Of a DNA stretch of 64,000 bases, positions 2,435 through 64,000 are shown piece after piece. Both the position numbers and the translations under genes were made by a program. Position 1 is the stretch's first letter, and every line of letters starts with the position of its first letter. The notes under the pieces were generated by a model. The model made no database searches, was not told the origin of the DNA, and saw only the letters and a program-made list of their open reading frames with translations. This stretch comes from Escherichia phage UPWr_E2. The stretch lies in sequence record PP418986.1; one strand, 5' to 3'.

Positions 2435-2791
2435 ATGTATAGTTCTGAATTTTCATATTTAAAAATGGAAAAAATTTCATACGATTTTATAGATGAAAAG
2501 GTTTATTACAGTTTCCATGAACCACGTTTTAATAGTGAGGTTGGGTTTATTGTAGTAAAAGACAATTTTATTTTAAAAATATATTCAGCATTAAAGGATT
2601 TTCATTACGAAAATATTAACCTAAAATTTAATAAAGAAAACGTTCGTAATTGTGCAGTAACAATTACAGGAAATAAAGGCACATGTGTTATGCTATCTGA
2701 TGAAATTAATGATTTGCTAAATGATGCCGAAAAGGTTGCTATTCCATCTATTGATGACCAAATTTTTAATGCTTTTATGAATAGAGGTTAA
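2435..2791 (+). CDS. hypothetical protein (61.2 position)
   Basis: 118-aa ORF in the 41-61 intergenic cluster. Confidence 0.45.
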   Translation: MYSSEFSYLKMEKISYDFIDEKVYYSFHEPRFNSEVGFIVVKDNFILKIYSALKDFHYENINLKFNKENVRNCAVTITGNKGTCVMLSDEINDLLNDAEKVAIPSIDDQIFNAFMNRG

Positions 2792-8734: not shown

Positions 8735-9358
8735 ATGATTATTAATCTTGCAGATGTTGAACAGTTATCTATAAAAGCTGAAAGCGTTGATTTTCAATAT
8801 GATATGTATAAAAAAGTCTGTGAAAAATTTACTGACTTTGAGCAGTCAATTCTTTGGCAATGTATGGAAGCTAAAAAGAATGAAGCTCTTCATCGGCAGT
8901 TGAATAAAATCGTTAAAAAGCATTTAACTAAATCACCTTATCAGTTATATCGTGGTATATCAAAATCGACAAAAGAACTCATTAAAGATTTACAAGTTGG
9001 AGAAGTGTTTTCAACGAATAGGGTAGATTCATTTACTACTAGTTTGCACACAGCATGTGGTTTTTCTTATGTTGAGTATTTCACTGAAATAATATTTCGC
9101 TTAAAAACTGATAAAGCTTTTAATTATTCTGACCATATCAGCGATATTATACTTTCTTCTCCTAATACTGAGTTTAAGTACACGTATGAAGATACTGATG
9201 GGCTAGATTCAGAGCGTACTGATAACTTAATGATGATTGTGCGTGAACAAGAATGGATGATTCCAATTGGAAAGTATAGAATAACTTCTATTTCAAAAGA
9301 AAAATTACACGATTCATTTGGAACATTTAAAGTTTATGATATTGAGGTAGTTGAATGA
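8735..9358 (+). CDS. modB: ADP-ribosyltransferase ModB-like
   Basis: 207 aa; first of two paralogous ORFs upstream of srd and dda, as in T4. Confidence 0.6.
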   Translation: MIINLADVEQLSIKAESVDFQYDMYKKVCEKFTDFEQSILWQCMEAKKNEALHRQLNKIVKKHLTKSPYQLYRGISKSTKELIKDLQVGEVFSTNRVDSFTTSLHTACGFSYVEYFTEIIFRLKTDKAFNYSDHISDIILSSPNTEFKYTYEDTDGLDSERTDNLMMIVREQEWMIPIGKYRITSISKEKLHDSFGTFKVYDIEVVE

Positions 9359-9957
9359 AATACTCAGTAATGCAACTAAAAGATTTTAAAATAAAATCAA
9401 TGGATGCATCTGTGCGTGCTTCTATTCGTGAAGAATTACTTTCTGAAGGATTTAATTTATCTGAAATTGAACTTTTAATTCATTGTATTACTAATAAACC
9501 AGATGACCATACTTGGTTAAATGAAATAATCAAATCTCGTTTGGAACCAAACGATAAACCTCTTTGGAGAGGTGTTCCAGCTGAGACTAAGCAGGTGTTA
9601 AATCAAGGAATTGATATTATTACATTTGATAAAGTCGTATCAGCTTCATATGATAAAAATATAGCTCTACATTTTGCTTCCGGTTTAGAGTATAACACAC
9701 AAGTTATTTTTGAATTCAAAGCTCCTATGGTATTCAATTTCCAGGAGTATGCTATAAAAGCTCTACGCTGTAAAGAATACAATCCAAACTTTAAGTTTCC
9801 GGATAGTCATCGTTATCGTAATATGGAATTAGTTTCAGATGAACAAGAAGTAATGATACCAGCTGGAAGTGTATTTAGAATTGCAGATAGATATGAGTAT
9901 AAAAAGTGTTCAACATACACTATCTATACTCTTGATTTTGAAGGATTTAATCTATAA
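9355..9957 (+). CDS. modA: ADP-ribosyltransferase ModA-like
   Basis: 200 aa; paralog of upstream ORF; T4 modA position. Confidence 0.6.
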   Translation: MKYSVMQLKDFKIKSMDASVRASIREELLSEGFNLSEIELLIHCITNKPDDHTWLNEIIKSRLEPNDKPLWRGVPAETKQVLNQGIDIITFDKVVSASYDKNIALHFASGLEYNTQVIFEFKAPMVFNFQEYAIKALRCKEYNPNFKFPDSHRYRNMELVSDEQEVMIPAGSVFRIADRYEYKKCSTYTIYTLDFEGFNL

Positions 9958-61126: not shown

Positions 61127-61130
61127 GTTG

Positions 61131-61160
61131 AGGACTCCTTCGGGAGTCCTTTTTTATTTT
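61131..61160 (+). terminator. rho-independent terminator
   Basis: AGGACTCC TTCG GGAGTCCT hairpin and T-run; same hairpin as after soc. Confidence 0.8.
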
Positions 61161-61236: not shown

Positions 61237-61560
61237 ATGAAAACGATTAATCTGAACGCTGCAGTTAAAACTAAATGCTTCAATGGTAAATATGATGAAA
61301 CTATGTGGTTCTTAATGGCAGTTGAAGGTGATATTATTGAAGTAGAAACAACAGAAGGTATGGGAACAGATTTCACCTTTACAATTCAAGTTCATAATTT
61401 CTTTACTGGTTGGATTTATGAATTGAATACAGTAATCGTTGGAAAAATTGAACAAAATGAATTAGGTGAATGGTATTATGTTACAGCTCGCCAACGTGCC
61501 GAACGCTTAATTGAGAAGATGAAAAAGTTGGTAAACTTGACATGCAGCATTGGAAAGTAG
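61237..61560 (+). CDS. hypothetical protein
   Basis: 107-aa ORF with AAGGAG SD. Confidence 0.45.
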   Translation: MKTINLNAAVKTKCFNGKYDETMWFLMAVEGDIIEVETTEGMGTDFTFTIQVHNFFTGWIYELNTVIVGKIEQNELGEWYYVTARQRAERLIEKMKKLVNLTCSIGK

Positions 61561-61570
61561 TAAAATAATT

Positions 61571-61635: not shown

Positions 61636-62001
61636 ATGAACTACATCAACTTTGAACGTAAATATGTTTCTAATGGTATTGCAGGTTCTATTGATACTAT
61701 TTGCCTTTGGAAACATCAAAATGGATCAGTATGCGAAATTGAGCAGTATATGACTCCTAATTACGTTTATATGCGATTTGAAAACGGTATCACGGTTTCA
61801 ATCACGATGGAAGGTTCCAACTTTAAAATCGCTCTGGATGATGATTTCCGTGAACGCGATTTAGGGACTCATCCTTGCTGGAATGGCGTTAATCGCAAGC
61901 TTTTGGTTAAAACTTGGATTCGTCATATTCTGAGTAACAGAGCTAAACCTGAGCATCTTGAAGCAATCTTTGATGTAGTTCTTAACGAATTTGATATTTA
62001 A
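61636..62001 (+). CDS. hypothetical protein
   Basis: 121 aa from ATG 61636 after GGAGAA SD. Confidence 0.45.
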   Translation: MNYINFERKYVSNGIAGSIDTICLWKHQNGSVCEIEQYMTPNYVYMRFENGITVSITMEGSNFKIALDDDFRERDLGTHPCWNGVNRKLLVKTWIRHILSNRAKPEHLEAIFDVVLNEFDI

Positions 62002-62041
62002 AATAAATGAGGGGCTTTGGCCCCTTACTGAGGAAAATGTT

Positions 62042-62329
62042 ATGTTTATGACTACTTATTTTGATACCCGTAAAAACTTCTGCGAAGTAGTTTTCTCAAA
62101 GGCGCCTAAAGACCTTCCTGCACATTTGCAACCTACCAGTGAATCGATTAAAAACTACGTTAATGTAGTCTGCCCTTTAGAGTTCCGTACTGTAAATGGG
62201 CGCGATACTTTAGCTATCACTAAACTCAATCGTGAAATTGACATTGACCCTTCAATTGCGCGCGAAATTAATATTTCTGATATTGGTGGAGGTAATGTTA
62301 AATCGCATGGTTTTCAGATGAGGTTCTAA
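62042..62329 (+). CDS. hypothetical protein
   Basis: 95 aa from ATG 62042 after GAGGAAAAT SD. Confidence 0.4.
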   Translation: MFMTTYFDTRKNFCEVVFSKAPKDLPAHLQPTSESIKNYVNVVCPLEFRTVNGRDTLAITKLNREIDIDPSIAREINISDIGGGNVKSHGFQMRF

Positions 62330-62526
62330 TGAAATTCTTTTTAGATCAAACCGTTGAATTAAAGGGAGTTGGTATACCTGGATTAATTTCTAAGGTTTTA
62401 CCTGCATTTAAATTGGGAGATGTTCAAGTAAAAGAGGCTTATATTGTTTCTTGGGTAGATGGAAATGAAGACCTTCGTATGGGTGATGAATTATCTCCTA
62501 TCTACGGATTAAAGGAATTAGTATGA
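62329..62526 (+). CDS. hypothetical protein
   Basis: 65-aa ORF. Confidence 0.4.
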   Translation: MKFFLDQTVELKGVGIPGLISKVLPAFKLGDVQVKEAYIVSWVDGNEDLRMGDELSPIYGLKELV

Positions 62527-62729
62527 ATATAATTAATAAGATTTTTGGAATTCAGTACATTAAGGTCACATATAAAGTAACAGATAAAAATCCATATACC
62601 GATGAACATGAAGAACCACAAATTGAGTCTATTATATTAGAAAAAGGCAGTGACTGGCCAGTTGAATTTCGTCTACCAAACTATGGTCATTGGGCTGATG
62701 TTGAAATTATAAGCATTGAAAATGTCTGA
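62523..62729 (+). CDS. hypothetical protein
   Basis: 68-aa ORF. Confidence 0.4.
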   Translation: MNIINKIFGIQYIKVTYKVTDKNPYTDEHEEPQIESIILEKGSDWPVEFRLPNYGHWADVEIISIENV

Positions 62730-63180
62730 GTTAGAGATTAGAAGTAATTTTAGGTGGCCATCATGTGCATTAAGTAATTTCGCCCATTGGCCTTTCGTTA
62801 TGGATGGTATTCAATTTGGAGGTCTTGAAGGATTCCTCCAAGGATGCAAGGTGAAAAACGTTGAACAACAACGTCGTATATTTGGGTTATCCGGGCTTGC
62901 CGCTCAACAAGCTGGAAGGTCTTATGCTAGAGCTCAGGACCGTGGGACCCTCTTCTGGCTTGGAGTTCCATTTTCAAGATACTCCCCGGCGTGGAAAGAA
63001 TTATGCACAAATGCATATTTTGAAGCAGCGATTCAAAACAAGGGCTTTCGTGATGCATTACAAGCCTCGAAAGGAAAAGTTTTGAAGCACAGCATGGCTA
63101 GTGGTCTAACAAAAGATGATACAATACTAACCGAAGCTGAATTTATTGATGTGTTAAACCTATTAAGAGACTCTCTATGA
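62716..63180 (+). CDS. NADAR-like (YbiA/DUF1768-like) domain protein
   Basis: 154 aa; LSNFAHWPF..DGIQF..LEGFLQGCK resembles the NADAR core FSNFAAWP..DG..EHYFQAQK. Confidence 0.5.
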   Translation: MKMSELEIRSNFRWPSCALSNFAHWPFVMDGIQFGGLEGFLQGCKVKNVEQQRRIFGLSGLAAQQAGRSYARAQDRGTLFWLGVPFSRYSPAWKELCTNAYFEAAIQNKGFRDALQASKGKVLKHSMASGLTKDDTILTEAEFIDVLNLLRDSL

Positions 63181-64000
63181 AGCCTACTATTTTAACTGAT
63201 ATTGATGGAGTATGTTTAAGCTGGCAATCAGGTCTTCCTTATTTTGCTCAGAAATATAATCTTCCGTTAGAACATATTTTAAAAATGATCCAGGATGAGA
63301 AATTTATTTCTCCAGGTAAACTCTTTAATTGTGACGAAGAACTTGGCGTCAAGCTAATTGAAAAATACAATCGTTCAGATTTTATTCGTTACTTGTCTCC
63401 ATATAAAGATGCTCTGTGTGTAATTAACAAATTAAAAGAAGATTATAATTTTGTAGCTGTTACAGCATTGGGTGATTCTATTGACGCTCTGCTGAATCGT
63501 CAATTTAATTTGAACGCTCTTTTTCCTGGTGCCTTCTCAGAAGTACTGATGTGTGGTCATGATTCTTCAAAAGAAGAGTTGTTTAAAAAGGCAAAAGAGA
63601 AATATAACGTGATTTGTTATATTGACGATCTCGCTCACCATTGCGATCATGCGAGTGAAATATTAAATGTTCCTGTTTATTGGATGGCTCGAGGAGAGCG
63701 TGACAATATTCCAAAAACTGCTCAGCGAGTTTATACATGGAATGATGTAGAAAATAAGCTTTTTCCATCGAAGGAAAATAAAGAAAGTTTTGATAGTGAA
63801 AAATCTATAAAAGATGTAATTGAAAAGATGATTAAAAACGATTCTTTTCCTTGGAACACTACCTGGAGAACTCCTGGATTTAATCCTTATAATCATCTAT
63901 ATCATCCATATCAGACGCATCCGTTTCAGACATGGAACTATATTAAACCCGGTGGCATAGAGTATTTGTATAATAGACCTACTGGTGCTAATAATATTTT
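63177..64000 (+). CDS. HAD-superfamily hydrolase-like protein (3' end beyond window)
   Basis: Open frame from ATG 63177 to window end with no stop; N-terminal ILTDIDGV HAD motif I. Confidence 0.5.
   Translation, partial: MKPTILTDIDGVCLSWQSGLPYFAQKYNLPLEHILKMIQDEKFISPGKLFNCDEELGVKLIEKYNRSDFIRYLSPYKDALCVINKLKEDYNFVAVTALGDSIDALLNRQFNLNALFPGAFSEVLMCGHDSSKEELFKKAKEKYNVICYIDDLAHHCDHASEILNVPVYWMARGERDNIPKTAQRVYTWNDVENKLFPSKENKESFDSEKSIKDVIEKMIKNDSFPWNTTWRTPGFNPYNHLYHPYQTHPFQTWNYIKPGGIEYLYNRPTGANNI

What the first reader, a model, noticed from the sequence alone, without database searches (positions are those of the whole stretch)
62716..63180. NADAR-like domain protein, candidate reverser of DNA ADP-ribosylation
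The N-terminal region LSNFAHWPFVMDGIQFGGLEGFLQGCK parallels the NADAR (YbiA/DUF1768) core FSNFAAWP...DG...EHYFQAQK. NADAR enzymes have been reported to remove ADP-ribose from guanine bases modified by DarT-type toxins, so a phage copy could be a counter-defence against DarTG-like systems. The window also encodes ModA/ModB-like ADP-ribosyltransferases, so this phage may both write and erase ADP-ribosylation.
Basis: partly seen in the sequence, partly recalled or inferred. Interest (0 to 1): 0.45.

Follow-up and report, generated by a model that had tools for sequence, protein, structure and literature searches.

The report
Known phage anti-DarT enzyme AdfN (gp30.3)

Summary
The ORF is real. Its likely start is the ATG at 62722 (152 aa), not the TTG at 62716. 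The window is a Tequatrovirus, 100% identical over the 2 kb tested to Yersinia phage PYps55T. The protein is 149/152 identical to T4 gp30.3.

T4 gp30.3 was renamed AdfN (anti-DarT factor NADAR) by Johannesman et al. 2025. Deleting it makes T4 and T2 sensitive to DarTG1. The purified protein removes ADP-ribose from DarT1-modified DNA. E36 and K43 are needed for full rescue, and the RB69 allele, which lacks the last helix, is inactive.

The window allele keeps E36, K43 and the phage-clade His123, and has the full C-terminal helix. Its three substitutions lie in variable columns.

My own tests place it in the NADAR superfamily:
- Pfam files it as PF08010, with no direct NADAR hit.
- 25 of 63 relatives do hit Pfam NADAR.
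- hhalign against YbiA gives 94% probability (E 1.4e-7).

ModA and ModB are in the window. They modify host proteins, so "write and erase" holds only loosely.

Verdict: interpretation supported, already known, low interest.

The parts
62722..63180 (+). adfN (T4 gene 30.3 ortholog) CDS, 152 aa plus stop. The ORF opens at the TTG at 62716, but ATG 62722 is the start annotated in T4 and PYps55T.
   Evidence: (149/152 identical to T4 NP_049816). Pfam PF08010 E=5e-69.
62827..62829 (+). GAA codon for Glu36, the conserved NADAR glutamate. E36A in T4 AdfN abolishes in vitro activity and weakens rescue.
   Evidence: Sequence read directly. Invariant in 63/63 family members. Aligns with the Glu of YbiA's 'SEHYFQAQK'. 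Mutant data in PMC11825919.
62848..62850 (+). AAG codon for Lys43, the conserved phosphate-coordinating lysine. K43A in T4 AdfN gives only partial rescue.
   Evidence: Conserved in 62/63 members. Aligns with the YbiA Lys. Equivalent to K50 of PnNADAR and K95 of E. coli C7 NADAR according to PMC11543638.
63088..63090 (+). CAC codon for His123 in the last beta-strand. This is the residue that distinguishes the phage gp30.3 clade: the position is Glu in the YbiA family and Asp in DarG1/BC4488.
   Evidence: Invariant in 63/63. Lies on strand 120-123 of the model. Clade rule from PMC11125620 and PMC11543638.
63133..63174 (+). C-terminal alpha-helix (residues 138-151), which is required for full activity. 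It is intact here and lost by frameshift in RB69.
   Evidence: Model helix H138-151. RB69 frameshift re-derived. Truncation phenotype in PMC11825919.
62523..62729 (+). Gene 30.4 homolog (68 aa, unknown function, PHROG 2042). Its stop overlaps the adfN ATG by 8 nt, which suggests translational coupling (inferred).
63177..64000 (+). Gene 30.2 homolog, cut by the window end. Its ATG overlaps the adfN stop (ATGA). Function unknown.
   Evidence: PHROG 420. No Pfam or NCBIfam hit.
61537..61566 (+). Best sigma-70-like promoter match upstream of the 30.7-30.3 gene string (TTGACA-18-TAAAAT, 11/12). A possible early promoter for the operon, but only a consensus match.
   Evidence: The number of such sites in the region is not above the shuffled expectation.

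Best explanation
Window 62722..63180 encodes AdfN, the T4 gene 30.3 product. It is a minimal, stand-alone NADAR-fold ADP-ribosylglycohydrolase.

Proposed mechanism:
1. On infection of a host carrying the DarTG1 toxin-antitoxin defence, the DarT1 toxin ADP-ribosylates the N2 of guanines in phage DNA and blocks replication.
2. AdfN is expressed with the early genes upstream of DNA ligase. It hydrolyses the ribose-guanine N-glycosidic bond, releasing ADP-ribose and restoring the base, so replication proceeds.
3. It works catalytically on the mark, not by binding the toxin.
4. It uses Glu36 and Lys43 plus the clade-specific His123, and needs its C-terminal helix.

What is shown here: orthology, intact length, conserved catalytic residues, NADAR fold.
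What is shown in the literature for the 98%-identical T4 protein: enzymatic activity, necessity and sufficiency against DarTG1, and guanine specificity.
What is inferred: that this allele behaves the same, and its early expression and translational coupling.
For: - 149/152 identity to T4 gp30.3, with the same synteny 30.4-30.3-30.2-30.1-ligase.
- PF08010 hit at E=5e-69.
- E36, K43 and H123 are invariant or near-invariant in 63 homologs. The three substitutions (Q22H, Y95C, I125M) fall in variable columns, and Met125 is the family majority.
- The allele is full length, unlike the frameshifted RB69 allele.
- NADAR homology: 25/63 relatives hit Pfam NADAR, best 1.5e-7. Profile vs YbiA gives E=0.0038. 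hhalign gives Prob 94%, E=1.4e-7.
- Literature on T4 AdfN: deletion in T4 and T2 abolishes plaquing on DarTG1 hosts, and ectopic expression rescues RB69. Purified protein removes ADP-ribose from DarT1-modified DNA while E36A does not, and there is no two-hybrid interaction with DarT1.
- G-ADPr is hydrolysed in vitro but T-ADPr is not, and C-ADPr is not.
Against: - No experiment exists on this exact allele.
- Direct hmmscan against Pfam NADAR gives no hit for this sequence.
- T4 AdfN does not neutralise DarT1 in uninfected E. coli and only weakly rescues T5 or Bas25. Its in vivo action therefore depends on something else in a T-even infection that is still unidentified.
- An earlier comparative study argued that phage NADARs mainly target soluble ADP-ribose derivatives.
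Confidence: 0.93

Rival explanations
1. The protein's main physiological substrate is not DNA but soluble ADP-ribose derivatives (signalling or toxic nucleotides made by host NAD-based immunity) or ADP-ribosylated RNA. On this view DNA de-ADP-ribosylation is one activity among several.
For: Iyer et al. 2022 proposed that phage NADARs prefer low-molecular-weight ADPr derivatives. NADARs of all four families, including the T4 one, are reported to remove guanosine-ADPr from RNA as well as DNA. AdfN fails to act as an antitoxin in uninfected cells.
Against: The deletion phenotype in T4 and T2 is specific: loss of resistance to DarTG1, a DNA-modifying system. The purified protein cleans DarT1-modified DNA. 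No soluble substrate has been shown for this clade.
Confidence: 0.1
2. It reverses the phage's own ADP-ribosylation by Alt, ModA or ModB. In that case the phage writes and erases the same marks.
For: ModA and ModB are in the same window and Alt lies just beyond gene 30 in relatives. Phage NADARs are said to be early genes co-expressed with the ARTs.
Against: According to the T4 record, ModA and ModB modify host proteins. NADARs characterised so far cleave base-ribose N-glycosidic bonds, on guanine or cytosine. modA and modB lie about 53 kb from adfN in the window. No data show protein de-ADP-ribosylation by any NADAR.
Confidence: 0.02
3. It is a YbiA-type housekeeping N-glycosidase acting on riboflavin-pathway intermediates.
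For: YbiA is the best sequence-level match among solved structures and is annotated 'N-glycosidase YbiA'.
Against: The defining YbiA-family glutamate in the last strand is replaced by His123 in all 63 family members. The gene sits in a phage early region. The literature places the clade nearest to the DarG1 NADARs.
Confidence: 0.02

Closest known systems
T4 AdfN (gp30.3, NP_049816), anti-DarT factor NADAR (Johannesman et al. 2025, PMC11825919)
   Same: 98% identical (149/152), same length, same catalytic residues, same position between 30.4 and 30.2 upstream of DNA ligase.
   Different: Three substitutions, Q22H, Y95C and I125M, all in variable columns of the family. This exact allele is untested.
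RB69 gp30.3 (naturally inactive AdfN allele)
   Same: Same gene and synteny.
   Different: RB69 carries a frameshift that removes the last helix. The window allele is intact.
DarG1, the NADAR antitoxin of DarTG1 (E. coli C7; Geobacter lovleyi, PDB 8BAT)
   Different: AdfN is an orphan with no adjacent DarT. It lacks the N-terminal extension. It has His rather than Asp at the last-strand catalytic position. It does not rescue DarT1 toxicity in uninfected cells.
E. coli YbiA (PDB 2B3W) and Phytophthora NADAR (PDB 8BAU)
   Different: Only 17-21% identity. Those proteins have Glu in the last strand. YbiA has a housekeeping role in riboflavin metabolism.
AdfN-Bas32 and AdfN-Bas60 (NADARs of T5-like and Vequintavirinae phages)
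   Same: Phage NADARs that counter DarTG1 and are specific for guanine-ADPr.
   Different: They belong to other NADAR clades, were acquired independently, and work without any T-even factor.
AdfA (T4 gp61.2) and AdfB (ICP1)
   Same: Also anti-DarT factors. AdfA is encoded in the same phage group.
   Different: They are non-enzymatic and act by binding the toxin. They are unrelated in sequence to AdfN.

Membership tests
NADAR superfamily (Pfam PF08719 / YbiA-like fold) | Significant direct match of this sequence to the Pfam NADAR HMM | tested here: not met
   hmmscan at E<=10 returns only PF08010 and a chance DUF724 hit. Pfam keeps gp30.3 proteins in a separate family.
NADAR superfamily (Pfam PF08719 / YbiA-like fold) | Sequence homology to bona fide NADARs, detectable through relatives or profiles | tested here: met
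   25 of 63 gp30.3-family members hit PF08719, best E=1.5e-7. Family profile vs PDB finds YbiA at E=0.0038. hhalign profile vs YbiA gives Prob 94%, E=1.4e-7.
NADAR superfamily (Pfam PF08719 / YbiA-like fold) | NADAR fold: alpha-helical core flanked by small beta-hairpins | tested here: met
NADAR superfamily (Pfam PF08719 / YbiA-like fold) | Conserved Glu and Lys of the E-x-x-F-Q-x-x-K motif that contact ADP-ribose | tested here: met
   E36 is invariant and K43 is conserved in 62/63. Both align to the YbiA motif. Their roles come from PMC11543638 and PMC11825919.
NADAR superfamily (Pfam PF08719 / YbiA-like fold) | Hydrolysis of guanine-linked ADP-ribose | not testable with these tools
   Shown for the 98%-identical T4 protein in vitro.
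Phage gp30.3 / AdfN-T4 clade (Pfam PF08010) | PF08010 match above the gathering score | tested here: met
   230.9 bits against a cut-off of 36, covering the full profile 1-138.
Phage gp30.3 / AdfN-T4 clade (Pfam PF08010) | Histidine at the last-strand catalytic position | tested here: met
   H123 is invariant in 63/63 and lies on strand 120-123. Its equivalence to E125 of PnNADAR is taken from the literature, not from my own superposition.
Phage gp30.3 / AdfN-T4 clade (Pfam PF08010) | Intact C-terminal helix, which is needed for full activity | tested here: met
   152 aa with helix 138-151 present. Compare the RB69 frameshift.
Phage gp30.3 / AdfN-T4 clade (Pfam PF08010) | Confers resistance to DarTG1 during infection | not testable with these tools
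   Shown for the T4 and T2 alleles.
DarG1 (DarT1-associated NADAR antitoxins, BC4488 family) | Encoded next to a DarT1 toxin gene | tested here: not met
   The neighbours are the 30.4 and 30.2 homologs. Scans of the flanking proteins find no ART or DarT domain.
DarG1 (DarT1-associated NADAR antitoxins, BC4488 family) | Aspartate at the last-strand position, and an N-terminal extension | tested here: not met
YbiA family (housekeeping N-glycosidases) | Glutamate at the last-strand position | tested here: not met
   His123 is invariant. Rule taken.

The most novel reading that the evidence does not exclude
T4-type AdfN is reported to need an unidentified T-even factor for full activity in vivo. 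The evidence here does not exclude that this factor is one of the genes translationally coupled to adfN. The candidates are the 30.2 homolog downstream (ATGA overlap; it has DxDG and DD motifs reminiscent of HAD phosphatases) and the small 30.4 upstream.

In favour: 30.2 accompanies 30.3 in all four Straboviridae genera I checked, including RB69 (where ectopic T4 AdfN works), and I have no indication that it occurs outside such phages. It was not searched for in T5, Bas25 or E. coli, where AdfN works poorly.

Against: gp30.3-type NADARs in three non-Straboviridae phages have no 30.2 within 3 kb.
Probability: 0.07. Interest if true: 0.45.

Novelty: already known. Interest (0 to 1): 0.1.

Why it matters
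The gene is a working example of a lytic phage carrying an orphan, antitoxin-like enzyme that repairs its own DNA after attack by a toxin-antitoxin defence. This was published for T4 in 2024-2025, so the window adds only another intact allele.

The practical consequences are small:
- Most of the roughly 1,500 phage records holding this gene that I saw listed still label it 'hypothetical protein' and could be re-annotated as AdfN/NADAR.
- The phage is predicted to be resistant to DarTG1.
- The case shows that a plain Pfam NADAR scan would wrongly have refuted a correct hypothesis.

Tried and rejected
- Direct Pfam scan for NADAR: no hit. This is a consequence of Pfam's family split, not evidence against homology.
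- phmmer of the single protein against PDB sequences: only chance hits at E about 0.4.
- NCBIfam: nothing for gp30.3 or gp30.2.
- gp30.2 as a HAD phosphatase. There is no Pfam hit. A single-sequence AF2 model was unusable (pLDDT 37.5), so I ran no fold search on it. A five-sequence profile against the PDB finds mouse 5'(3')-deoxyribonucleotidase only at E=1.3. The result is inconclusive.
- 30.2 as an obligate partner of 30.3. The two are linked in RB69, Klebsiella phage Matisse and Acinetobacter phage Kimel. 30.2 is absent within 3 kb in Sinorhizobium phiN3, Ralstonia RSP15 and Agrobacterium Atu_ph04. Linkage may simply reflect shared descent.
- Promoter and terminator scan: site counts do not exceed shuffled expectation, so I make no firm transcription claim.
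- 'Erases the phage's own ModA/ModB marks': rejected as unsupported (see the rival explanations).
- I could not retrieve LeRoux et al. 2022. The identity AdfA = gene 61.2 is taken from PMC9391042.

Full report
**The observation**

The ORF listing gives a 154-aa ORF at 62716..63180 (+) starting at a TTG. Two codons downstream is an ATG at 62722. That ATG is the start annotated in T4 (gene 30.3, 152 aa) and in Yersinia phage PYps55T, whose sequence is 100% identical to window 62000-64000. The window is therefore a Tequatrovirus (T4-like) genome segment.

The gene overlaps the stop of the upstream 30.4 homolog by 8 nt. Its own stop overlaps the ATG of the downstream 30.2 homolog (ATGA).

**Identity**

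The protein is 149/152 identical to T4 gp30.3, with no gaps. The DNA is 98% identical across the gene and its flanks. Pfam places it in PF08010 Phage_30_3 (E=5e-69, full-length match) and PHROGs in family 652.

tblastn finds the gene in 1,510 phage records. Most are Straboviridae of Escherichia, Klebsiella, Shigella, Aeromonas, Acinetobacter and Vibrio. It also occurs in Sinorhizobium, Agrobacterium and Ralstonia myoviruses outside that family. Nearly all the records listed call it 'hypothetical protein'. One record (phage Shinka) already labels it 'NADAR domain containing protein'.

**Is it a NADAR? My own tests**

A direct hmmscan of this sequence against Pfam NADAR (PF08719) finds nothing even at E<=10. 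Single-sequence phmmer against PDB sequences finds only noise. Every more sensitive test supports membership:

- Among 63 full-length homologs collected from metagenomes, 25 hit PF08719 on their own, the best at E=1.5e-7. JGI names several of them YbiA/DUF1768.
- A profile of the 63 finds E. coli YbiA (2B3W) at E=0.0038 as the only credible PDB match.
- hhalign of that profile against YbiA gives 94% probability and E=1.4e-7 over 91 columns. It aligns SNFA-WP, DG and the E..FQ..K motif.
- An AlphaFold2 model built on the alignment is confident (pLDDT 93.7, pTM 0.89).
- Foldseek's three best PDB hits are exactly the three solved NADARs: 2B3W, 8BAU and 8BAT.

This reproduces the structural result reported for T4 AdfN.

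**Functional residues**

E36 and H123 are invariant and K43 is present in 62 of 63 homologs. The codons are GAA 62827-62829, AAG 62848-62850 and CAC 63088-63090.

The literature identifies the Glu and Lys as contacts to the distal ribose and phosphates of ADP-ribose. The last-strand position is the family discriminator: Glu in YbiA-type, Asp in DarG1-type, His in phage gp30.3-type.

The three differences from T4 are Q22H, Y95C and I125M. All lie in variable columns, and Met125 is in fact the family majority. The C-terminal helix (residues 138-151) is intact. I re-derived the RB69 frameshift that removes it, which matches the published description of the inactive RB69 allele.

**What it does: published evidence for the T4 ortholog**

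Johannesman et al. (Nat Commun 2025, PMC11825919) mapped DarTG1 resistance of T-even phages to gene 30.3 and renamed it adfN. Their findings:

- Deleting it from T4 or T2 abolishes plaquing on DarTG1 hosts.
- Expressing it rescues RB69.
- E36A, K43A and the RB69-like truncation weaken rescue.
- Purified AdfN removes ADP-ribose from DarT1-modified DNA, whereas E36A does not.
- AdfN does not bind DarT1 in a two-hybrid assay.
- It does not counter DarTG2.

An independent study showed that T4 gp30.3 hydrolyses guanosine-ADPr but not thymidine-ADPr in vitro, yet cannot rescue DarT1 toxicity in uninfected cells. A 2026 study adds that it does not remove cytidine-ADPr. DarT1 attaches ADP-ribose to guanine N2.

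An unresolved point is that T4-type AdfN works fully only during a T-even infection. This suggests an unknown phage co-factor. DNA hydroxymethylation and glucosylation have been excluded as the reason.

**Mechanism proposed for this locus**

AdfN is an early-expressed, stand-alone NADAR glycohydrolase that catalytically removes host-written guanine ADP-ribose from phage DNA and so neutralises DarTG1.

- Shown here: orthology, fold, residue conservation.
- Transferred from experiments on a 98%-identical protein: enzymology and phenotype.
- Inferred: expression timing and translational coupling. The one strong sigma-70-like site upstream (61537..61566) is only a consensus match, and site counts are not above chance.

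**The 'writes and erases' idea**

ModB (8735..9358) and ModA (9355..9957) are present, at 95% and 99% identity to T4. Alt lies just beyond gene 30 in relatives, outside the window. According to the T4 record these enzymes modify host proteins. AdfN removes a host-made DNA mark. The phage does carry both a writer and an eraser of ADP-ribosylation, but on different substrates and for different purposes. Nothing suggests that AdfN reverses the Mod or Alt marks.

**Rivals**

- A role on soluble ADP-ribose derivatives or RNA-G-ADPr may exist in addition. It does not displace the demonstrated DarTG1 phenotype.
- A YbiA-like housekeeping role is contradicted by the His123 signature and the phage context.
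- DarG1 membership fails on three defining features: there is no adjacent DarT, no N-terminal extension, and His rather than Asp at the last-strand position. The chemistry is nevertheless the same.

**Surroundings and side observations**

- The downstream 30.2 homolog has no family assignment. Its DIDGV and IDD motifs resemble HAD phosphatases, but the profile test is not significant (E=1.3) and the single-sequence model is unusable.
- 30.2 travels with 30.3 in Straboviridae but not in three non-Straboviridae phages.
- The T4-annotated internal out-of-frame gene 30.3' has lost its ATG here (ACG) and is interrupted in RB69.
- The slot of the other anti-DarT gene, adfA (61.2), holds a 118-aa protein only 34% identical to the C-terminal half of T4 AdfA.

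**Verdict**

However, this is the already characterised AdfN. Novelty is 'already known' and interest is low.

Noticed in passing
window 2435..2791 (+): The slot of T4 gene 61.2 (adfA, the other anti-DarT factor), between sp and 61.1, holds a 118-aa protein instead of 208 aa. It is only 34% identical to the C-terminal half of T4 AdfA and belongs to a different PHROG (4122; weak hit to 3781). By my count on the BLASTP alignment, the position aligned to the critical His of T4 AdfA is Cys. This phage may lack a functional canonical AdfA and rely on AdfN.
   Followed up: partly
window 62858..63085 (+), inside adfN, frame +2: T4 annotates an internal out-of-frame gene 30.3' here. In the window its ATG is ACG (a synonymous change in the adfN frame), leaving only a TTG at 62861. 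In RB69 the frame is broken by a stop after about 35 codons. It stays open in two Dhakavirus genomes. The ORF is therefore not consistently conserved, which casts doubt on 30.3' as a real gene.
   Followed up: partly
window 63177..64000 (+), cut by the window end: The gene 30.2 homolog is translationally coupled to adfN (ATGA overlap). It has no Pfam or NCBIfam hit. Invariant DxDG (DIDGV) and DD motifs hint at a HAD-type phosphatase or nucleotidase, but the best PDB profile match, 5'(3')-deoxyribonucleotidase, has only E=1.3. It is linked to 30.3 in Straboviridae only.
   Followed up: partly
window 8735..9957 (+): ModB (207 aa, 95% identical to T4) and ModA (200 aa, 99% identical to T4) ADP-ribosyltransferase genes, followed by srd and dda homologs. 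This is ordinary T4 synteny.
   Followed up: yes
L014 (Agrobacterium phage Atu_ph04) 3004..5613; also L011 and L012: gp30.3-type NADARs occur outside Straboviridae. In Atu_ph04 the gene sits next to a putative helicase and an endonuclease V-type UV-repair glycosylase, which is a DNA-repair-like neighbourhood. In Ralstonia RSP15 it lies within a tRNA gene cluster.
   Followed up: no
window 61130..61151 (+) and 61537..61566 (+): A strong terminator-like hairpin (9-bp stem plus T-run) follows the 30.9 homolog. A near-consensus sigma-70 promoter (11/12) lies just upstream of the 30.7 homolog (its -10 hexamer overlaps the last bases of the 30.8 ORF). Together they may delimit the transcription unit that contains adfN.
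   Followed up: no
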